Of a DNA stretch of 64,000 nt, positions 1 to 25,774 are shown piece after piece; positions within the stretch are counted from its first letter, which is position 1; each line of letters starts with the position of its first letter. The stretch is taken from positions 23,622,001 to 23,686,000 of the forward strand of contig OZ024751.1 of NCBI GenBank assembly GCA_964016885.1. Direction: 5' to 3'. The position numbers and the translations under genes are program-made. The stretch comes from Eledone cirrhosa (Eukaryota). Below the pieces are notes generated by a model. The model was given only the letters and a program-made list of their open reading frames with translations. It was not told where the DNA came from and searched no databases.

Positions 1-480
1 CTACTGATTACACGAACAAAGTAAATAGCAACATCTCTTCTCGTGTAGTGAGCAAGGAGGTGAGGGACATGAGTCATATTCGTTTTAAATTCTAAATATC
101 AGTGATATAATTCATGGAAAAAACCCTGCATTTCAATATTAGTCAATGTAAAATGTACTGCAGAAAATATTGGAAAACATTATTTGTGATAATATATCAA
201 ATCTAAAATTACATTACATCTTATTCTTATCTTGTGTCGTGTAATTTTTTGTATAGACGTCATATCTTCTCATATTGTTTAAATTTCATAAATCGAATTT
301 CATAAATCGAACTGAAAATATTTGCAGCAGGGGTTTTCAGCGGGGGTTTATGCCATCGCGGAACCCTTTGATTAAAATGAAATATACTTATCCAAGTACC
401 CTGGGCGATATAGTTTCAGAATTTATATGGTTATATAACCATAGGAGTAGTCCGTGAACAAACAGACAGACAGGAATACA

Positions 481-527
<47 letters not shown>

Positions 528-5407: not shown

Positions 5408-6176
5408 ATATATATATATATATATATGGATGACTGAAGGCTGACGTGCTTACTTCTAAAATGTCTCCCGTGTCTTTCTCTTCTCGCTCTCATCTATCCT
5501 TTTTTATAACTTTATATCTTCTTTTATTTCTTCTAGCCGAACCTCTTCCTTACTCATAACTAACAAGGTTGTGTTGGCTACCCACAGGAGCGAGTCTCAC
5601 GAATTGGAATGGCTATTCCAACAGGTCTCCCTCACCATGCTCTAGAGCAGCGTTTCCTCCATTCTGTTCGCTGGGACCATCAGACAGATATACATAATTG
5701 ATATTTATCAGAAATTGTGTGAAAGGACCTACAACACTCATCTAAGTTTATATCAAAATTGAATACCTTTAAGTGATTGTGTGAACGCTCATTGAATAAA
5801 AAATACAACAATTCAACACACCTTAACATTAGTTTTCACTTAACATTTGTGTTTCCGTATGTAATTACCTTTGAGAGAACAAGAACAGTAACGCCGCCGC
5901 CATCTTAACATAGTATTTCTTTGATTTGAAAGTTAATAGTCCGCTGGGTTTTGTGGATGTAAATCCCGCTGTAATAAGGTAAGATGTAAGCCTTTGGTGT
6001 TTCATATAATATATTAACATTGTATAATATGTTAGCCATAAAAGAATGTTAAATTTCAATATATGCTTTTAACAGACAATTACATCGCTCCAAATGTATC
6101 CAGAATAGCACACACACACACATACACACACAGACACATACATACACATACACACACGCAGTTACACACATAGACA

Positions 6177-6263
<87 letters not shown>

Positions 6264-6833
6264 CACATATATATATATGGAACGTTTTGCTGTCTAACTT
6301 ACACAGAAGGCGCAGCAGACACTTTAGGAGAAGCTTATAACCAATTTGTTGAAACCCAGGGCTGAAATACCAGCTATTTTCTTGAAACAGGAAAAATGAA
6401 AAATGAATTTGCTGCTAGTTCTTCACTAGTGTACTTATCTTATTCTTCCTGGACTGATGAATGGTGAAGATGGCATCAGTTTCGAACTGAACTCATTGTA
6501 CGAAGAAACCAAACGATTTATCCACTAGGTGTGATGTCTTCTTTCAGAGCACGACACTCTGTTAACGCTGGGGTATCCTACACTTTAGGGATTTAACTTT
6601 ATCATTTGCAGTGACAATGTTATCCGAGTCGAAGAAGAAAACCTTCCATCTCATACATTTGACGACATCCGGACCCTTATCCAGTAACATCGAATGATCA
6701 TTGTTTTTCGCGGATATGGTAAGTTTCTTTATTGAGTTAGTCATTTTGTATTGTTCCATGTTGATATGAGGTAATTATAAAAAAGTAATTATGAAAAGTG
6801 AAAAATTATTATATATTACAAATCTATAAACAA

Positions 6834-7020
6834 TGGATTGGTAGTATCGGTAGGGGGTCGGACATCATGCTTTGACGCATAGAGTTACGGCCCTTTCCAT
6901 TCTGAGTTCAAATCCCTCCGAGGTCAACTTTGCCTTTCATCCTTACGGCGTCGATGAAATAAAGTACCAGTAATGTATTGTGTAATTGCTGGCCTTAAGC
7001 CAAAAGTAGAAACAATTATT
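6834..7020 (+). mobile_element. Octopus-type tRNA-derived SINE (copies near 14300, 18949, 35365, 43002, 49174(-), 61969(-), 62168(-), 63012, 63205, 63400, 63866(-))
   Basis: A-box-like tgg(c/t)agtatcgg, B-box gagttcaaat, core actttgcctttcatccttacgg..tcgat.aaataaagtaccag and tail gctggccttgtgcc...tagaaacaattatt, repeated more than 10 times. Confidence 0.8.
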
Positions 7021-7630
7021 TATATATTTATTTATTTATATATATTTATAAATTAATTAATTTATTTATTTATTAATCTTATCCTTTTCCAAATTATATT
7101 AAGAATGTAAAATTACAAATCTATAAACAATATGTATATTTTATATTATTTCTATATTTATTTATTTATATATATTTATAAATAAATAATTAAATTAATT
7201 AAGTTAGTTATTTATTTATTTATTAATCCTTTTCCAAATTGTATTAAGAATGTCCAAGTATGGAGATGAATTTATTTAGTAGTGGATTAAAGTATGTATC
7301 TAATTTATGAACACTATTACTAGCTAGTTATTGTGTGTTATATTTATTCAGAAATGAAATAATGAAATGGAAGATATTTTAAGAATAAGATGATATAGGA
7401 AGGTACATAATGTATTTATTTAATCTATTTTATGGGAATAATGTATAAATAAAGTATAAGATCTGTAGTAGAGAAAAGAAGTTACAAGGAGTGTATTAAT
7501 ATATTAAGGTTTTCGTAATAGTTTTATTATCAAGTGGGAAAAGAGGATATAGGATAGAAATATATATGTGTATGAGAGTATTGAAGTTTGCTTGAAGCAT
7601 TGTGGAATAATAAGGTAAAATTGTGGAATA

Positions 7631-9493: not shown

Positions 9494-10699
9494 ATGAAGA
9501 TGTTGATAAACTATTTTGTTTTAATCCTGACAGCAACTCTATCGCTAGTAAATCTCAGTCCTACGCGGGAAGATGAAATTCTACTACATACTAACTTGTT
9601 ATCCACTTATAACAAACAAATAAGGCCTGTTTCGAATTTGAATAAATCAGTCGATATAGAGGTTTGGTTATTCCTTAAGACGCTCTATAATTTCGATTTT
9701 GTAAATAACATATTAATTGCACAATACTTCATTATCTTCTACTGGGAAGATGAAATGCTGAGATGGAATCCAGAAGATTACCATAACCTCACACGTACAT
9801 ACTTACCGAAAGCTAAGGTATGGACACCAGGTGTCATAATGTGTAATTCAATGAAGGAATCAGACGATAAAGATAGTTTTCCCGAGGTAATAGTTTATAA
9901 TGAAGGGTGGATAGAAATGCGGGCACTAAAATCAGTAGAGACATATTGTGAAGTAGATGCTTACACCTACCCATTTGATAAACAGGAGTGCCCAATCTGC
10001 ATATCTGTCACTGTGCACGAACCTCAGCATACCAAATTTGTATCAATTAATTGCGGGGTTAATGAATTTGAAAATAACCACCAATGGGGTATCAGCATGG
10101 ATGGTCAAGTAGACCCAAAGAACGACATATACAGCTCCGTAACAGCTACGATGTTCTTACAACGTAAACTCACAGTAGGTATTTTGGCTATGCTAATTCC
10201 AACTGTAATGATGACACTTTTAACTATCTTTGTGTTTCTCCTGCCCCCTGAATCAGGAGAGAAAGTCTCTTTAGCAACAACGATATTTTTATCAAATGTC
10301 TTATACCTCGTTCAAATAGATAAAACGACGCCTAAAAACTCAAAATATCCTTCACTTCTGATGTTGTATTTAATGTTGTTATCAATGTGCAGTGGAGTCG
10401 CCACACTTGGTTCAGTGGTTCTCAGTAAATTGTATGTAAACCAATCGGCTAAGGAAAAGAATTCATCGGCTTTAGATCAAAATAATACCAAACCTCAGGG
10501 TAACAAAATTGCTGATGTTTCACTAATTTCCACAGCACAAGCTTATCCTGCCATGACACAGGAAAGGTCAAAGTTAAAACGATGGTTCTACATCTCTGAC
10601 TACGTACGACTTGACAACATTTTTCTAAAACTTAGCGTCGTAACATCAATAATAATTGCAATATTATTTGTAACTTTGTTGTTTACAGCTCCGGATTAA
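9494..10699 (+). CDS. Chemotactile receptor (CR)-like divergent nicotinic-type Cys-loop ion channel subunit, copy 1 (intronless CDS, 401 aa)
   Basis: Uninterrupted ORF. The ORF-track start at 9470 is TTG and the first ATG is at 9494. Hydrophobic signal peptide; nAChR-like motifs YNKQIRP, W.D..LRWNP and VWTP; Cys-loop C160-x13-C174 with YPFD; M1-M2 linker LPPESGEKVSL; four TM segments; short M3-M4 loop. No loop-C CC, no loop-B Trp, loop-A Tyr replaced by Cys. Intronless tandem organisation matches cephalopod CRs. Confidence 0.92.
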   Translation: MKMLINYFVLILTATLSLVNLSPTREDEILLHTNLLSTYNKQIRPVSNLNKSVDIEVWLFLKTLYNFDFVNNILIAQYFIIFYWEDEMLRWNPEDYHNLTRTYLPKAKVWTPGVIMCNSMKESDDKDSFPEVIVYNEGWIEMRALKSVETYCEVDAYTYPFDKQECPICISVTVHEPQHTKFVSINCGVNEFENNHQWGISMDGQVDPKNDIYSSVTATMFLQRKLTVGILAMLIPTVMMTLLTIFVFLLPPESGEKVSLATTIFLSNVLYLVQIDKTTPKNSKYPSLLMLYLMLLSMCSGVATLGSVVLSKLYVNQSAKEKNSSALDQNNTKPQGNKIADVSLISTAQAYPAMTQERSKLKRWFYISDYVRLDNIFLKLSVVTSIIIAILFVTLLFTAPD

Positions 10700-16107: not shown

Positions 16108-17017
16108 ATATATATATATATCATCATCATCATCATCATCATCATCACCATCACCATCATCATCATCAACATCATTATCATCATCATCGAGAATAACAAC
16201 AACCTAATCATTATCCTTGTAGTCAAAACAAAGATAAAAAAAGAAAGCAACAAATCTGTACAAAGGAACTATGGAAAGAAGTCACTAGAAAAAACGATAC
16301 CAAGCGACAAATTGATACGAAGATCGATTTATTGAATAAGGAAGCGATATAATATATGAAACATCCGGGTTGCTAGAAAACGTATGAGATGAGAGAAAAT
16401 ATATTTAAGTAGCGTTTATTGTTGTTGACCACAGATGATAAGAGTGGTGCTTGTTGGTTTGGGTGGTAATTGTAAATATAAAAATAAATATAAATATATA
16501 TACACATACATATCCATACAAACACTGACACACACACACACACTCACACGTACACGCACACACATACACACACACACGCACACACCGACAGACACACACA
16601 CACACAAATATATATACACGTGTGTGTAAATAATAGTACAGTTACGAAAGTTGTTAGGTATTATGTTCACGCTTGTGTTTATGTGTGTGTGTGCCTGTGA
16701 GTGTGTGTGTGTTTGTGTATTTGTGCATGTGAGTGTGTGTGTGTGTGCGTACGTGTATGTAAGAATGTATACATATATATTTATATAGATATGTATATAA
16801 ATATATATGTATACATGTTTACATAACACGTAGTTACACATATACACACGCACAAACACACACTCACACTCTCTCTCTCTGTCTCTCTCTCTATCTTACA
16901 CACACACACACACATACACACATATATATATATAGTTTAGAATTGGTGTTCGAAAAGTTCTTCGAAATGCTTTTAATTAAGCATACAGTGTATTGCAAAA
17001 TACACTGTATATACATT

Positions 17018-17116
<99 letters not shown>

Positions 17117-17202
17117 GTAGGAGGTGAGTTTTATTGTAGTACAATAAAGCAATGCAGATATCGGATAAGAAGCACTCTACAGTTTGTGGGACTGGAGTAT
17201 GC

Positions 17203-17530
17203 ATAATATACGATCAAAAGATGGTTAAAGGAGTTCCATATATTTTATTATGCGCATTTCAAAAACAAACATCATCAAGCAATAATATTTGTGTTTTCAT
17301 CAGATAAAACAGGAGAACATGATATGAAGGCTAAAAAATACTTGTGGATAGTGCAGCTTTAAATCAACATATGTTGATTTAAAGCTGCACTATCCACAAG
17401 TGTTTTTTAGCCTTCATATCATGTTCTCCTGTTTTATCTGATGAAAACACAAATATTATTGCTTGATGATGTTTGTTTTTGAAATGCGCATAATAAAATA
17501 TATGGAACTCCTTTAACCATCTTTTGATCT

Positions 17531-17538
<8 letters not shown>
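17203..17538. repeat. 336-bp palindrome with two inverted hammerhead motifs, copy 2
   Basis: Centre 17370/17371; hammerhead motifs at 17431-17499 (+) and 17242-17310 (-). Confidence 0.92.
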
Positions 17539-17569
<31 letters not shown>

Positions 17570-18319
17570 TGACTGAAGGCTGACGTGCTTACTTCTAAAA
17601 TGTCTCCCGTGTCTTTCTCTTCTCGCTCTCATCTATCCTTTTTTATATCTTTATATCTTCTTTTATTTCTTCTAGCCGAACCTCTTCCTTACTCATAACT
17701 AACAAGGTTGTGTTGGCTACCCACAGGAGCGAGTCTCACGAATTGGAATGGCTATTCCAACAGGTCTCCCTCACCATGCTCTAGAGCAGCGTTTCCTCCA
17801 TTCTGTTCGCTGGGACCATCAGACAGATATACATAATTGATATTTATCAGAAATTGTGTGAAAGGACCTACAACACTCATCTAAGTTTATATCAAAATTG
17901 AATACCTTTAAGTGATTGTGTGAACGCTCATTGAATAAAAAATACAACAATTCAACACACCTTAACATTAGTTTTCACTTAACATTTGTGTTTCCGTATG
18001 TAATTACCTTTGAGAGAACAAGAACAGTAACGCCGCCGCCATCTTAACATAGTATTTCTTTGATTTGAAAGTTAATAGTCCGCTGGGTTTTGTGGATGTA
18101 AATCCCGCTGTAATAAGGTAAGATGTAAGCCTTTGGTGTTTCATATAATATATTAACATTGTATAATATGTTAGCCATAAAAGAATGTTAAATTTCAATA
18201 TATGCTTTTAACAGACAATTACATCGCTCCAAATGTATCCAGAATAGAACACACACACACATACACACACAGACACATACATACACATACACACACGCAC
18301 GCAGTTACACACATAGACA

Positions 18320-18378
<59 letters not shown>

Positions 18379-19750
18379 CACATATATATATATGGAACGT
18401 TTTGCTGTCTAACTTACACAGAAGGCGCAGCAGACACTTTAGGAGAAGCTTATAACCAATTTGTTGAAACCCAGGGCTGAAATACCAGCTATTTTCTTGA
18501 AACAGGAAAAATGAAAAATGAATTTGCTGCTAGTTCTTCACTAGTGTACTTATCTTATTCTTCCTGGACTGATGAATGGTGAAGATGGCATCAGTTTCGA
18601 ACTGAACTCATTGTACGAAGAAACCAAACGATTTATCCACTAGGTGTGATGTCTTCTTTCAGAGCACGACACTCTGTTAACGCTGGGGTATCCTACACTT
18701 TAGGGATTTAACTTTATCATTTGCAGTGACAATGTTATCCGAGTCGAAGAAGAAAACCTTCCATCTCATACATTTGACGACATCCGGACCCTTATCCAGT
18801 AACATCGAATGATCATTGTTTTTCGCGGATATGGTAAGTTTCTTTATTGAGTTAGTCATTTTGTATTGTTCCATGTTGATATGAGGTAATTATAAAAAGT
18901 AATTATGAAAAGTGAAAAATTATTATATATTACAAATCTATAAACAATGGATTGGTAGTATCGGTAGGGGGTCGGACATCATGCTTTGACGCATAGAGTT
19001 ACGGCCCTTTCCATTCTGAGTTCAAATCCCTCCGAGGTCAACTTTGCCTTTCATCCTTACGGCGTCGATGAAATAAAGTACCAGTAATGTATTGTGTAAT
19101 TGCTGGCCTTAAGCCAAAAGTAGAAACAATTATTTATATATTTATTTATTTATATATATTTATAAATTAATTAATTAATTTATTTATTAATCTTATCCTT
19201 TTCCAAATTATATTAAGAATGTAAAATTACAAATCTATAAACAATATGTATATTTTATATTATTTCTATATTTATTTATTTATATATATTTATAAATAAA
19301 TAATTAAATTAATTAAGTTAGTTATTTATTTATTTATTAATCCTTTTCCAAATTGTATTAAGAATGTCCAAGTATTATTATGGAGATGAATTTATTTAGT
19401 AGTGGATTAAAGTATGTATCTAATTTATGAACACTATTACTAGCTAGTTATTGTGTGTTATATTTATTCAGAAATGAAATAATGAAATGGAAGATATTTT
19501 AAGAATAAGATGATATAGGAAGGTACATAATGTATTTATTTAATCTATTTTATGGGAATAATGTATAAATAAAGTATAAGATCTGTAGTAGAGAAAAGAA
19601 GTTACAAGGAGTGTATTAATATATTAACGTTTTCGTAATAGTTTTATTATCAAGTGGGAAAAGAGGATATAGGATAGAAAGATATATGTGTATGAGAGTA
19701 TTGAAGTTTGCTTGAAGCATTGTGGAATAATAAGGTAAAATTGTGGAATA

Positions 19751-21041
19751 ATAAGGTAAATTTCTTTAAGTCGTTTGGAAGCCTCGGCAATGCAGATGGG
19801 TAAATCTCCGAAATAACAAGATCCGGTGGTGGAGAGAGATGTAAGTGGGTGTACGTTGAGATGCTTGGCGTGTATAAGACGTGTAGAGAAATGAAGGAAA
19901 GAGCGTAAATGCCACACCTGGGCGAGAATACCACCAACGCTATCCGCAAGTCTATACGGGGGGAGGGCCTCGACATCCATCTGGCCCACTCGAGCCCCTC
20001 CCTGCGAAGATGCCTTTCCAGGAAACCCGCGAAATCAACTGACGCGTGCTCTCTCAGAAACTGCCCGATGCACCATGGGAACTGTTGCCTACGCACATAC
20101 GTCGTGTATAAGATAGAATGTAACAAGTGCAACCAATACTATATAGGTAGCACAATCCGGCCGTTGCAGATCCGGATCAAGGAACACACCAAAACCAGGG
20201 CCTCGTCTTTCCGGAAACACATAGCCAAATGCGGAAACAAAGACGGAAAAACCATTGTCACAATTCTAGCGACAGAAAGAAACGTCGGCACGTTACGTAT
20301 CAAGGAAGCACTTTGGATCAAACGCCTAGGGCCACAATTAAACAGCCGATCCGAGAGAAGCGAAATGAGGTGGTTGGTTTAAGTTAACAAACGATGCAGC
20401 AATACACGCACACACACACACAAGCGAGACAGCAACACACGCACACACACACACAGTAGCATTCCACCACACGAACACACTACACTGCCAATACAGAGGA
20501 ACAAGGCAACAACACACGCACACACACGAACACACTCAAGCGAGACAACAACACACACATACACACACACAGTAACATTCACCAAGCGGGCAGAGAATGG
20601 ACTGACAGCTAGCGCCACCCCACTACCACAATTGAAAGAACAACTTCGGCCGCTGACCTCTGCCTGACCGACCCCATTTCAACCGCACGCGCGCTCTGCT
20701 GAATACCTCAGATATTCAAAACAACAAACAGCGGAGGACACGTTTCGCACCTTTCCGACAGACAAACTTTCCCTACCCCCCGGAAAAACCCCCAGTCGAT
20801 GGATGTGAATCCGAAATATATAGGGAAAATTAAATCTCTCCCAAGTTAACTCTCTCTCGTGTTGTTATTTTTATCTTTATCTTTACGCTCTTTCCTTCAT
20901 TCCTCTACACGTCTTATACACGTCACGCATCTCAACGTACACCCACTTACATCTCTCTCTCCACCAACGGATCTTGTTACCCGGAGATTTACCAATCTGC
21001 ATTGTCGAGGCTTCCAAACGACTTAAAGAAATTTACCTTAT
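19751..21041 (+). mobile_element. Penelope-like GIY-YIG remnant with inverted termini, copy 2
   Basis: ORF 19909-20382 has the Cys-rich linker plus GIY-YIG motif; same inverted termini. Confidence 0.85.
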
Positions 21042-21438
21042 ATATGTGTAGTGTCTGAAAGCTGGTCACCATTAACATAGATTATGGTTTAGAAGCTTTG
21101 ATTTAGATTGTATTTTCTAACAAGTCTCTCTTCGATTTCAGGTAGACGATTCTTCTGGTTACTATAAAACCTTGTATATCTGTAACAGCGACTCATTTCT
21201 TCAATAAGAACCTAAGAACTTGAAAACTACTATTTCCTGCCGATATTGTTACTGGAATATTCATCTCTCTCTCTTTCTCTTTCTCTCTCTCTCTCTCTCC
21301 TCTCTCCCTCTCTGTCTGTCTAGCTCTCTCTCTCTCTCTCTCTCCACCTCTCTCTGTATATATATATATATATATACTCTGCCTGTGCATCGAATATTCA
21401 TTTTGGTGCTGTCACAAGTAATTTACTGAATCACATAC

Positions 21439-21512
<74 letters not shown>

Positions 21513-21520
21513 ACACACAC

Positions 21521-21566
<46 letters not shown>

Positions 21567-21874
21567 ACTCATAAACACACAGCCACATACACATATATTC
21601 ATATATAATGAAACACAACTTCCTAATTGATAAAAAAGATGGACTATTTAATATGTTATTATATAATCCTCGTATATGTTAACAATCAGTTCTTATTATA
21701 ACTTTTACTTGCGCCTATAACAGTGACCTAACACTTACTAAATGAAACACCTAAACTTTGACAAATTAATATTTATATTTATTAGAGAAAGTTAATATTT
21801 AATGGAGTGAATTTATATGTATCAGAGAAACATTAATACAAAAACTAAAATTGGCTCGTTTACAAATAGGAAAG

Positions 21875-23080
21875 ATGAAGATGTTGATAAACTATTTTGT
21901 TTTAATCCTGACAGCAACTATATCGCTAGTAAATCTCAGCCCTACGCACGTAGATGAAATTCAACTACATACTAAGTTGTTATCTACTTATAACAAACAA
22001 ATAAGGCCCATTTCGAATTTGAATAAATCTGTCGATATAAAGGTTGAGTTATACCTTGGCAGACTCTATAATATCGATTTTGTAAATAACCTACTAATTG
22101 CACAATACTGGATTATCTTTTACTGGGAAGATGAACTGCTGAGATGGAATCCAGAAGATTACCACAATCTCACACATACATACTTACCGAAAGCTAAGGT
22201 ATGGACACCAGGTGTCATAATTTGTAATTCAATGAAGGAATCAGAAGAGAAATATAGTATTTCCGAGGTAATACTTTATAATAATGGGCGGATAGAAATG
22301 CGGACACAAAAAGTAATAGAGACATATTGTGAAGTAAATGCTTACAACTACCCATTTGATAAACAGGAGTGCCCAATCACCATATGTGTCGCTGTGCACA
22401 AACCTCAGCATACCAAATTTGTATCAATTAATTGCAGGATTCATGAAATTGATAAAAACTACCAATGGGGTATCAGCATGGATGGTCAAGTAGACCCAAA
22501 GAACGACATATACAGCTCCGTAACAGCTTCGATGTACTTACAACGTAAACTCACAGTAGGAATTTTGGCTATGCTAATTCCAGCTATAATGATGACACTT
22601 TTAACTATCTTTGTGTTTCTCCTGCCCCCTGAATCAGGAGAGAAAGTCTCTTTAGCAACAACGATATTTTTATCAAATGTCTTATACCTCGTTCAAATAG
22701 ATAAAACGACGCCTAAAAACTCAAAATCCCCTTCACTTCTGATGTTGTATTTAATGTTGTTATCAATGTGCAGTGGAGTTGCCACACTTGGTTCAGTGGT
22801 TATCAGTAAATTGTATGTAAACCAATCAGCTAAAGAAAAGAATTCATCGGTTTCAGATCAAAATAATACCAAACCTCAGGGTAACAAAATTGCTGATGTT
22901 TCACTAATTTCCACAGCACAAGCTTATCCTGCCATGACACAGGAAAGGTCAAAGTTAAAACGATGGTTTTACATCTCTGACTACGTACGACTTGACAACA
23001 TTTTTCTAAAACTTAGCGTTGTAACATCAATAATAATTGCAATATTATTTGTAACTTTGTTGTTTACAGCTCCGGATTAA
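21875..23080 (+). CDS. Chemotactile receptor (CR)-like Cys-loop ion channel subunit, copy 2 (divergent extracellular domain)
   Basis: Same length and architecture as copy 1. By hand count 50 aa differ from copy 1, 44 of them before M1. First ATG at 21875. Confidence 0.92.
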   Translation: MKMLINYFVLILTATISLVNLSPTHVDEIQLHTKLLSTYNKQIRPISNLNKSVDIKVELYLGRLYNIDFVNNLLIAQYWIIFYWEDELLRWNPEDYHNLTHTYLPKAKVWTPGVIICNSMKESEEKYSISEVILYNNGRIEMRTQKVIETYCEVNAYNYPFDKQECPITICVAVHKPQHTKFVSINCRIHEIDKNYQWGISMDGQVDPKNDIYSSVTASMYLQRKLTVGILAMLIPAIMMTLLTIFVFLLPPESGEKVSLATTIFLSNVLYLVQIDKTTPKNSKSPSLLMLYLMLLSMCSGVATLGSVVISKLYVNQSAKEKNSSVSDQNNTKPQGNKIADVSLISTAQAYPAMTQERSKLKRWFYISDYVRLDNIFLKLSVVTSIIIAILFVTLLFTAPD

Positions 23081-23259
23081 GCAATTCTAAAATATGGGAA
23101 AATAAACTAAACGTACATTCATAAATACATCGCTATTTCAGAGCACCAATAAGTGTGTATTTATATATATAATGAAAGTAGATCATATTCGAAGTTCGAG
23201 CGGGAGCTAAGCCAACAGATACATATAATGTAGTAGTAGTGCACTCAGTCCATGGAACA

Positions 23260-25640
23260 AGATTGGTAGAAGGAGTTCCACAACAGTTAATTCACAATAT
23301 CGAACACAAATCTAACACCATATTCGGATCCTCATTTCGTTCTAGACAGAGCTGAGGATCCGAAGAACAAAGTGAAACATTTGTTCTCGGTATGGTATAT
23401 TAACTGTTGTGGAACTAACTCTATAATATATTTAGATTAGCAACGGATTTCACGCATCTCTGCTAATAAAAATATTTTTGATGATAAGGCAGAATATTAC
23501 AACGAGGCTTTACATAGAGCAGGATACTCGAATAAAATTAAATCCTTAGATAACAATAACATTATAAATCATCCTAGAATTCATTATAATAACAATAAAC
23601 AATTCAACTTAAATAGTAAACCAAACAAAAAAACTAGAACTAGAAACATTTTTTGGTACTCTCCCTCATTCTCATTAGGCGTTAAAACACCTTTAGCAAA
23701 GCTATTTTATAAAGCACTAGATAAGTGCTTTCCTAAAGCCCAAAGATACCACTCTATAAAACTATCCTACTCTACTACTATGAACATAGCACAAAATATT
23801 AATAGAATCAATAATAGAAACTTAAATTTAAACCCGAACGAAACAAACCAAGATAGCAATAATAGTATTTCTAATAACAATATTCATAATAATAGTACCC
23901 CATAAAATGTAACTGTAGAATTAAATCGAACTGCCCTTTACAAAATAATTGCTTAGACAAAAACTTAATTTATAAATGCACAGTTAAAACTAGAGACAAA
24001 ATATTTAACTATATAGGTGCCACTTCTACAAAATTCAAAGAACGCTGGTACAACCACAAACATACATTTAATAGGTCCGATAAAAAAAACTTCCACTTCA
24101 CTTTCACATCTAATTTGGAATTTAAAGGACAACAGTATAGACCATTCAATATCTTGGGGAACGATTTCGAAAGCACCTGCATACCGAAATATGGCTTTCT
24201 CAAGGATCTGTCAATTGTGTATCGAGAAAATATTTTATATAATTAATTGTCAAAACTATTAATTTAAAAACAGAATTATTTTCTACTTGCAGACATCGCC
24301 AAAATTCAACTTTCCGAAGTATTTTTAATCTATGATATTCATTACACTTGACTATATCTTATACACCTTTAAAATGATCCTATTATTTACTGAGTCTTTC
24401 TTTAACAATATAAAAAATTTTTTTAAATGATCTTCCTTCTTAAATTTAGTATTTTTTCCATTTGATATTCTTTTCCTAATGATACTCTTCTTAATCTATT
24501 TTTTAGATGTAGATTGATACTCTTTAATTGAAATTCTGAAAGATATCCTCTTTACGATAGTTCTTCGAAATGCACTCTTGACTTATCTAATAATACATTT
24601 TTCCTCTTTTTAATCTTCAAACTTTTCACACATCTTTCGACGTAAATAATATGTAATTGAAATTCTCATCCTTGAAAAACATAATATAAAATACCTTATA
24701 ATCTCACACAAAATAATATATAATTTTCTGTACATACTTCCTAAGTAAATCATTCATCAAATTTAATGGTTAGCAAATAATATTGGAGTTATCTTTTCAT
24801 TTACAATTGAGCAAACATAGACATGATAACTTGTATGATGAATTATATAATTTCGCTAAATTAATAATATTCTGAAAACATTTTCAATGTTGGAACAAAA
24901 ATTCAAATCTACAAATTGGTCTCCTCTTACAACTTGAACTACGTCTTTTTTAAAAATATTTATGTAAAATGTAAAATTAACATCCTTCGTAACTCATATG
25001 AGAAATATAAACAAGTAATACGTGTGGTTTATTTATATAAAATCAACAAAAATACTTATACTTGCACAATTATTAATCTATATAGATATTTTTATACTTA
25101 CAAACTCTTGTAATGTAATAACATAAAATGTACTTACAACTATAATTCTTTATAAAATCTAATTGATTATATATACAATATTATAAATCATAATATAGCT
25201 AAATTATTTTTTTTAAATTCTGGAATCATATTCCACCATTCCTACAAACTTATGATTCTTTTTAAATTCACGTAAATACAAGCGTTTATATCTTTCTCTT
25301 TCTTCTTCCTACAGATACATATATATATCCTAATCATTTAAAAAAATCTACCTAGCGTCTGAAAATAACGTCTTTTTCAACCCTATACCTCGACCTCATT
25401 TGCATACTCAACTTAATAATTTGAAATATTTGACTTTTCTTCTCTTTCCCTTCTTTCCTTTTACTATCCAGGTAAAACTTGAACCGTTAAGATCTTCTTC
25501 CTGGTTATGTCAATATTTATAAAACAATCTTTGTATGTTATCTGATGAGAGCGTACCAAAGGTTTGGTACCCTTGCAATATATATGATAGAATAAATATG
25601 GTTTTATAAATATAGTTTCCATTTATTTAATATCATTGTA
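23260..25640 (+). mobile_element. Paralogous degenerate Penelope-like element downstream of CR copy 2
   Basis: Collinear with 10820-13222; its terminal hammerhead has GAAA mutated to GCAA. Confidence 0.8.
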
Positions 25641-25699
25641 TATATATATATATGTTATATCATATATATATAATATAAAATATATATATATATTTATAT

Positions 25700-25774
<75 letters not shown>

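What the first reader, a model, noticed from the sequence alone, without database searches (positions are those of the whole stretch)
21875..22546. Extracellular domain of copy 2 diverges faster than its pore and its non-coding flanks
Seen (hand count): 44 aa differences from copy 1 in the ~232 residues before M1, against 6 in the remaining ~177, with M2 invariant. I could find only about 8 synonymous changes in the extracellular part. The upstream non-coding DNA (17570-19720 vs 5430-7600) is almost identical. Inference: positive selection on the sensing domain, or homogenisation of flanks and pore by gene conversion that spares the sensing domain, giving a variable-sensor/constant-pore design.
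Basis: partly seen in the sequence, partly recalled or inferred. Interest (0 to 1): 0.75.

Follow-up and report, generated by a model that had tools for sequence, protein, structure and literature searches.

The report
Young octopus taste-by-touch receptor copies
Three recently duplicated octopus 'taste-by-touch' receptor genes differ mostly in the pocket that binds chemicals while their ion pore stays the same, a fresh and unusually young example of a pattern already described for this receptor family.

Summary
The counts are right: copy 2 differs from copy 1 at 44 of 224 residues before M1 and 6 of 177 after. Eight extracellular codons are purely synonymous and M2 is identical. The genes are three intact, tandem, single-ORF octopus chemotactile receptors (CRT1-like Cys-loop channels, 56% identical to CRT1).

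The interpretation needs narrowing. Whole-domain dN/dS is 1.5 (P 0.19) and falls to neutral when multi-base mutations are allowed. The robust signal is the ligand pocket: 9 of 15 positions defined from CRT1 differ, against about 3 expected under neutrality and 34 of 188 elsewhere in the domain.

The pore is held by purifying selection (omega about 0.26), not by conversion; its synonymous divergence equals the extracellular domain's. Both lineages diverged about equally, so copy 2 is not the fast one. The near-identical upstream DNA is a separate homogenised block (0.4%) ending about 1.3 kb before the ATG; the proximal flanks differ by 3%. Copies 1 and 3 differ almost only in codons 22-80, a mosaic patch.

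Pocket-focused selection in this family is published, so this is a new member of a known kind. It is useful as a natural few-residue experiment.

The parts
21875..23080 (+). Copy 2 chemotactile-receptor gene, one uninterrupted 401-aa ORF
   Evidence: best PDB sequence match CRT1 E 6e-137; Pfam Neur_chan_LBD and Neur_chan_memb; best fold match 8EIS
9494..10699 (+). Copy 1 gene, 401 aa; 50 aa differences from copy 2, 8 from copy 3
38142..39347 (+). Copy 3 gene, 401 aa; differs from copy 1 at one base in codons 81-401
21938..22546 (+). Mature extracellular ligand-binding domain of copy 2 (codons 22-224); 43 aa differences from copy 1. Codons 1-21 are the inferred signal peptide
   Evidence: the mature CRT1 chain aligns from residue 22
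22046..22054 (+). Pocket codons 58 and 60 (CRT1 L37, Y39): W/E/L and F/Y/L in c1/c2/c3
   Evidence: CRT1 residues
22109..22111 (+). Pocket codon 79 (CRT1 Y58): F/W/I in c1/c2/c3
22307..22309 (+). Pocket codon 145 (CRT1 F124): L/Q/L
22379..22393 (+). Codons 169-173 (171 = CRT1 C150, 173 = A152). The cysteine is at 171 in c2 and at 169 in c1/c3
22436..22444 (+). Pocket codons 188-190 (CRT1 E167, D168, S169): GVN in c1/c3, RIH in c2
22547..23080 (+). Transmembrane and intracellular part (codons 225-401), under purifying selection; M2 (about 22637-22708) invariant
   Evidence: omega 0.26, LRT P 0.003; 6 aa-changing events against about 30 neutral; helix 255-278 in the model
38205..38381 (+). Mosaic patch, codons 22-80 of copy 3 (9557-9733 in copy 1): holds 15 of the 16 coding differences between c1 and c3
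   Evidence: scan test 0 of 1000 permutations
21940..21963 (+). Run of 5 consecutive variable sites where c2 = c3 and c1 differs (candidate short conversion tract; direction unknown)
   Evidence: permutation P 0.0007
16120..20585 (.). Distal upstream block nearly identical in all three units (c1-c2 0.4%), ending abruptly at about 20586
   Evidence: changepoint 9/3640 vs 20/914 c2-unique sites, 0 of 2000 permutations
20586..21874 (.). Proximal upstream flank, about 2.4% diverged c1-c2
23081..25750 (.). Downstream flank, 3.5% diverged c1-c2
17198..17543 (.). Spacer-less palindrome (173-bp arms, 98% complementary) inside the homogenised block; present in all three units

Best explanation
These are three young tandem paralogs of the octopus chemotactile receptor (CRT) family: pentameric cation channels that bind poorly soluble molecules in an extracellular pocket between subunits. 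SHOWN: family identity by sequence and fold; intact frames; amino-acid change concentrated on pocket positions beyond neutral expectation; purifying selection on the TM part; symmetric divergence of the c2 and c1/c3 lineages; a sharply bounded near-identical upstream block; a mosaic patch in codons 22-80. INFERRED: after duplication, selection favoured changes that retune the pocket, so c2 and c1/c3 detect different ligands, while the rest of the domain drifted under loose constraint. The pore, and probably the ability to co-assemble, was kept by purifying selection. Unequal exchange or gene conversion among units homogenised the distal upstream block and shuffled the N-terminal strands that carry pocket positions 58, 60 and 79. 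NOT SHOWN: expression in suckers, ligands, channel activity.
For: CRT1 is the best sequence and fold match. Pocket set = all 15 CRT1 residues named in the legends of Figs S7C and S8 of 10.1101/2025.10.28.685082: 9 of 15 differ against 34 of 188, Fisher P 0.0007; ML omega 10.2, LRT P 1e-6. Multi-base-aware neutral simulation conditioned on synonymous events: mean 3.0 pocket changes, with 0 of 631 and 9 of 1042 runs reaching 9. The changed pocket positions lie in five separate stretches of sequence. The three codons with a different residue in every copy (58, 60, 79) are all pocket positions. M2a beats M1a, 2dL 29. TM: 6 events against about 30. Differences avoid family-conserved ECD sites: 3 of 43 sites conserved at 90% or more, 20 of 62 variable sites. 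Site-level selection on the CR pocket is published.
Against: Whole-ECD omega is not above 1 under the conservative test (293 of 631 neutral runs reach 41 events), and non-pocket ECD omega of 1.4-1.65 is not significant. Only three sequences, two of them 98% identical. The ML LRTs ignore multi-base mutation, which is common here (17 of 85 flank events), and ignore recombination. The pocket is mapped from a 56%-identical homologue without coordinates. Unseen paralogs could have donated patches. In the contigs of runs X1-X3, several c2-specific letters (22222, 22246, 22249, 22253, 22854) were not seen at all (absence from contigs is weak evidence).
Confidence: 0.72

Rival explanations
1. Relaxed constraint only: the ECD of redundant young duplicates drifts neutrally (omega about 1) while the TM stays constrained. 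The pocket enrichment is chance plus clustered mutation.
For: ECD as a whole: 41 events against 39 neutral; NG86 P 0.19; multi-base events are frequent.
Against: The pocket count exceeds the neutral simulations (0/631 and 9/1042, and 0 of 321 when conditioned on about 44 ECD changes). Three different residues sit at each of three pocket codons. Against the flank rate, the ECD has 41 events against 13 expected (0 of 3000).
Confidence: 0.15
2. Mosaic donor: the ECD of c2 (or of c1/c3) was imported by conversion from an older paralog, so it is simply older than the pore and flanks.
For: Mosaicism exists in codons 22-80. More versions of the gene occur in public contigs, for example pieces with 17-19 other letters in 142-169. 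Synonymous events in the gene exceed the flank rate (13 against 5.25, 7 of 3000).
Against: Synonymous divergence is alike in ECD and TM (10/146 against 7/130, P 0.80; 3/61 against 4/81 fourfold sites). An older donor raises dS with dN and does not explain the pocket focus.
Confidence: 0.08
3. One reading: gene conversion homogenised the pore and flanks and spared the sensing domain.
For: The distal upstream block is nearly identical and sharply bounded.
Against: The TM keeps 6 synonymous events, more than the 2.5 expected at flank rate, so it was not recently converted. The proximal flanks are 3% diverged.
Confidence: 0.03
4. Assembly artefact: copies 1 and 3 are two haplotypes of one locus, or copy 2 is chimeric.
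For: c1 and c3 are 98-99% identical over about 12 kb. No whole genome was held to check against.
Against: The units are flanked by different spacers. A 124-letter public contig matches c2's most divergent stretch, 22017-22140, with no difference (that run may not be independent of the assembly). An artefact would not touch the c1-c2 contrast or give intact frames with pocket-focused change.
Confidence: 0.05

Closest known systems
Octopus bimaculoides chemotactile receptor CRT1 (PDB 8EIS, 9E6B-D, 9YI4) and the CR family
   Same: Cys-loop architecture; 56% identity overall; 90% over residues 225-315 and 45% over the ECD; same M2; single coding ORF; clustered family (26 genes on one chromosome, PMC9068888 passage); diversifying selection reported at pocket residues.
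   Different: A separate subclade with a long stem (0.52) and no relative above 56% among 27 hits. The paralogs are 88-98% identical, so very young. The pocket has Arg at the W122 position in all copies, and Gln or Leu at F124. c1 and c3 lack the C150 equivalent and have a cysteine two residues earlier. Y58 and F124, reported as purifying in one preprint and as positively selected in the other, vary here.
Squid CRB1 (8EIZ) and nicotinic acetylcholine receptors
   Same: Fold and Cys-loop.
   Different: Far weaker matches (143 and 128 bits or less, against 460). No vicinal cysteines in loop C.
Peak of divergence under gene conversion (human red/green opsins; review PMC3924837)
   Same: Tandem duplicates with near-identical non-coding DNA and higher divergence around functionally important coding sites.
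   Different: Here the homogenised block stops 1.3 kb from the gene, and the evidence that the gene resisted conversion is modest: non-CpG fourfold sites (3/125) match the flank rate.

Membership tests
Cephalopod chemotactile receptors (CRT clade) | Cys-loop ligand-binding domain plus four-helix membrane domain | tested here: met
   Pfam PF02931 and PF02932; C152-C166 invariant; model with four TM helices
Cephalopod chemotactile receptors (CRT clade) | Closer to CRT1 than to CRB1 or nAChRs; groups with octopus CR-like proteins | tested here: met
   460 bits against 143 and 128; best fold hit 8EIS; nests among 20 CRT-like octopus or unnamed proteins, midpoint-rooted tree without an nAChR outgroup
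Cephalopod chemotactile receptors (CRT clade) | Loss of the acetylcholine-binding motif (loop C vicinal cysteines, loop B Trp; feature recalled from general knowledge) | tested here: met
   Loop C has no cysteine and positions 169-175 have no Trp in any copy
Cephalopod chemotactile receptors (CRT clade) | Uninterrupted coding sequence in a tandem cluster (single exon recalled; cluster from PMC9068888) | tested here: met
Cephalopod chemotactile receptors (CRT clade) | Cation-type pore motif before M2 (Glu ring; feature recalled) | tested here: met
   Residues 252-278 are the same in the three copies and in CRT1; conductance itself not measured
Cephalopod chemotactile receptors (CRT clade) | Diversifying selection concentrated at the ligand pocket | tested here: met
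   three sequences only
Cephalopod chemotactile receptors (CRT clade) | Expression in sucker sensory epithelium | not testable with these tools
   no RNA holder listed
Cephalopod chemotactile receptors (CRT clade) | Gating by poorly soluble ligands, not acetylcholine | not testable with these tools
   needs heterologous electrophysiology
Divergence peak maintained by selection against gene conversion | Neutral sites near the selected residues are more diverged than converted flanks | tested here: inconclusive
   13 synonymous events against 5.25 at flank rate (7 of 3000), but 4 of the 14 differences in synonymous codons are CpG transitions and non-CpG fourfold sites are 3/125

The most novel reading that the evidence does not exclude
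The array is a live diversity generator. A long palindrome in each unit promotes exchange between units. Exchange erases differences in non-coding DNA but swaps the N-terminal strands that carry the pocket's complementary face (positions 58, 60, 79) between paralogs, so new ligand specificities arise by module shuffling on a constant pore, with selection guarding the pocket against homogenisation. c1 and c3 would then be one receptor body with two different pocket faces.
Probability: 0.2. Interest if true: 0.6.

Novelty: new member of a known kind. Interest (0 to 1): 0.33.

Why it matters
The published selection signal in chemotactile receptors was computed across family-wide alignments. Here it appears between copies 88-98% identical. 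c1 and c3 differ by only 8 residues, three of them pocket positions, on an identical pore. That makes a small natural experiment on how a taste-by-touch receptor changes its ligand. It also shows that exchange among copies must be modelled when selection is estimated in this family. It does not overturn anything known.

Tried and rejected
Whole-genome look-up: no genome held, so array members outside the window could not be read. RNA evidence: no RNA holder listed. Allard et al. 2023 (Nature) was not held; its claims come second-hand from passages of a review and two preprints, and its supplements may list further pocket residues.

Rejected: copy-2-specific acceleration. The branch lengths are equal; of 38 ECD sites, outgroup counts c2-derived, 12 c1/c3-derived and 7 unresolved, a rough method with 56%-identical outgroups.
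Rejected: a converted pore.
Rejected: pseudogene decay (intact frames, TM purifying).
Rejected: the distal block as neutral baseline.
Considered and left unsupported: an alternating two-gene higher-order repeat. The tail at 1-525 is closer to c2's tail (16/505 differences) than to c1's (17/303) but is not near-identical.

Whole-domain ML omega of 1.95 (P 0.02) did not survive the multi-base-aware test. The structure model gave no coordinates, so no distance-based pocket could be defined. Earlier-findings look-ups returned nothing. Eight of ten other ORFs scanned had no Pfam match. Three paper searches on these receptors listed no paper on gene conversion among chemotactile-receptor paralogs; subscription journals are largely missing from that library.

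Full report
WHAT IS THERE. The window is AT-rich, microsatellite-rich DNA holding three related units of about 12-16 kb. Each carries one uninterrupted 401-codon ORF: c1 9494-10699, c2 21875-23080, c3 38142-39347. The protein has the Pfam neurotransmitter-gated channel domains. Its best solved relative is octopus chemotactile receptor CRT1 (460 bits, E 6e-137), far ahead of squid CRB1 (143 bits) and nicotinic receptors (128 bits or less). An AlphaFold2 model (pLDDT 73.6) matches CRT1 8EIS first. A search of the large protein set gave 27 hits at E 1e-40 or better, none above 56% identity, the named ones from Octopus species. I aligned 22 of the 27, leaving out five short ones. The three copies form their own clade with a long stem. 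The animal is therefore most likely an octopod; I did not determine the species.

OBSERVATION. c1 and c2 differ at 44 of 224 residues before M1 and at 6 of 177 after. Eight extracellular codons differ synonymously only, and residues 252-278 (M2) are identical in all copies. All of this is confirmed. The N:S ratio differs between the domains (51:10 against 6:7, P 0.008).

THE RIGHT BASELINE. I aligned the three units and kept 8168 of 10304 columns, dropping those near gaps or in simple repeats. The near-identity is confined to 16120-20585 (c1-c2 0.4%). At about 20586 the density of c2-unique sites jumps from 9/3640 to 20/914 (0 of 2000 permutations). From there through the 3' flank, non-coding divergence is 3.1% (105/3334). 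So a distal block was homogenised recently, by conversion or unequal exchange (inferred), and the whole gene neighbourhood was left out. Synonymous divergence inside the gene is 5-7%: 13 events against 5.25 expected at the flank rate (7 of 3000 simulations). However, 4 of the 14 differences in synonymous codons are CpG transitions, and non-CpG fourfold sites (3/125) match the flank. The neutral yardstick thus lies between about 2.5% and 6%.

WHOLE-DOMAIN SELECTION IS NOT ROBUST. NG86 omega for the ECD is 1.47 (P 0.19) and ML omega 1.95 (P 0.02). Against the flank rate the ECD has 41 amino-acid-changing events against 13 expected (0 of 3000). But 17 of 85 flank events involve neighbouring bases. 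A neutral simulation with such events, conditioned on the observed synonymous events, expects 39; 293 of 631 runs reach 41. On its own synonymous sites the domain looks neutral on average.

THE POCKET SIGNAL IS ROBUST. I took all 15 CRT1 residues named in the legends of Figs S7C and S8 of bioRxiv 10.1101/2025.10.28.685082 (passages read) and mapped them by the ungapped alignment. Nine of 15 differ between c1 and c2, against 34 of 188 other mature-ECD residues (P 0.0007); ML omega is 10.2 (LRT P 1e-6). The conservative simulation expects 3.0; 0 of 631 runs (whole-gene conditioning) and 9 of 1042 (ECD-only conditioning) reach 9. The changed positions fall in five separate stretches (58-60, 79, 145, 171-173, 188-190). 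The only three codons with three different residues in three copies (58 W/E/L, 60 F/Y/L, 79 F/W/I) are the equivalents of CRT1 L37, Y39 and Y58. In that preprint, substitutions at these positions abolished progesterone responses. M2a beats M1a (2dL 29) and picks 58, 60, 62, 79 and 169, though that test ignores multi-base mutation and recombination. Differences avoid family-conserved sites (3 of 43 against 20 of 62 variable sites, scored on 20 of the 22 homologues).

THE PORE IS CONSERVED BY SELECTION, NOT CONVERSION. TM omega is 0.26 (P 0.003), with 6 amino-acid-changing events against about 30 neutral. Its synonymous divergence equals the ECD's (7/130 against 10/146, P 0.80). The same contrast holds deep in the family: c2 is 45% identical to CRT1 in the ECD and 90% over residues 225-315.

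NOT A COPY-2 EFFECT. Branch lengths are 0.076 for c2 and 0.063 plus about 0.01 for c1/c3. Of 38 ECD sites where c2 differs from both others, outgroup counts c2-derived, 12 c1/c3-derived and 7 unresolved. One c1/c3-derived change is notable. Cysteines 117 and 171 are present together in 19 of 22 homologues and absent together in 3, which suggests a disulfide (inference). c1 and c3 keep C117, lose C171 and gain C169.

MOSAICISM. c1 and c3 differ at 15 of 177 bases in codons 22-80 and at 1 of 966 in the rest of the gene downstream (scan test 0 of 1000). Within the patch, five consecutive variable sites (21940-21963) are shared by c2 and c3 (P 0.0007). Three sequences cannot give the direction.

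PUBLIC CONTIGS. Four runs (two samples, one study, possibly not independent of the assembly) hold further versions of the gene. Of 186 difference rows 40 were shown, 39 of them in the ORF. Eleven letters occur in none of the three copies; each would change a residue, nine lie in the ECD, and four are in pocket codons 58, 143 and 190. This list is display-biased and only suggestive. One 124-letter contig matches c2's 22017-22140 exactly. Against this, several c2-specific letters further on (22222, 22246, 22249, 22253, 22854) were not seen in runs X1-X3.

MECHANISM. Most likely (0.72): young chemotactile-receptor paralogs whose ligand pocket was retuned by positive selection on both lineages, on a loosely constrained ECD and a strictly conserved pore, in an array that undergoes segmental exchange. 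Rivals: relaxation only (0.15), an older donor for the ECD (0.08), assembly artefact (0.05), converted pore (0.03). Expression, ligands and channel function are not shown.

WHAT IS KNOWN. The review PMC11526382 (passages) states that positively selected sites in octopus CRs concentrate in the ligand pocket, citing Allard et al. 2023, which I could not read. Two preprints repeat and extend this (passages and one methods section). PMC9068888 (passages) reports a cluster of 26 such genes. Divergence peaks under conversion are described for opsins (PMC3924837, passages). Three searches listed no paper on conversion or mosaicism among CR paralogs, in a library that lacks most subscription papers.

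VERDICT. It is a new member of a known kind; interest 0.33. Its value is as a young, few-residue natural experiment, with a 20% chance of the bolder module-shuffling reading.

Noticed in passing
window 17198-17543; also centred after 5239 and 33779: Spacer-less palindrome with about 170-bp arms (1-3 mismatches over the first 168 bp) in the homogenised upstream block of every unit. The partial fourth unit joins the equivalents of 17090 and 17531, so it lacks the palindrome. It could be a recombination trigger or a foldback element.
   Followed up: partly
window 19909-20382 and 36305-36778: GIY-YIG endonuclease ORF (Pfam PF01541) with an inverted repeat 19748-19909 / 20882-21045, like a Penelope-type retroelement fragment (type recalled). 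Unit 1 lacks about 120 bp at its start. The homogenisation boundary at about 20586 lies between the ORF and the second repeat arm.
   Followed up: partly
window 1-525: Tail of a further unit upstream of the window, closer to unit 2's tail (16/505 differences) than to unit 1's (17/303); the array probably continues to the left.
   Followed up: partly
window 44390-49003: Two truncated copies of the units' upstream region (95% and 87% identical), with no receptor ORF after them in the window.
   Followed up: no
window 50375-53632: A 3.2-kb TATA/TACA microsatellite array that produces several spurious ORFs of 600-1000 codons; flanked by a 460-bp direct repeat, 49916-50375 / 53625-54083.
   Followed up: no
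window 22379-22387 and the equivalent codons 169-171 of c1 and c3: Cysteine shift from 171 to 169 in c1/c3, breaking a perfect covariation of C117 with C171 in 22 homologues. All three copies also have C187, seen in 2 of 22 homologues.
   Followed up: partly
window 21714-23127 as laid in run X4: One 1420-letter contig with 97 other letters and 7 gaps carries c2's letters at 21920 and 22728 but c1-type letters at many ECD sites, plus a 6-base deletion at 22968. It is either another mosaic paralog or a chimeric contig.
   Followed up: no
window 22247-22249 (codon 125): The equivalent of CRT1 E104, the vestibule ring that tunes calcium permeation, is Glu in c2 and Asp in c1/c3.
   Followed up: no
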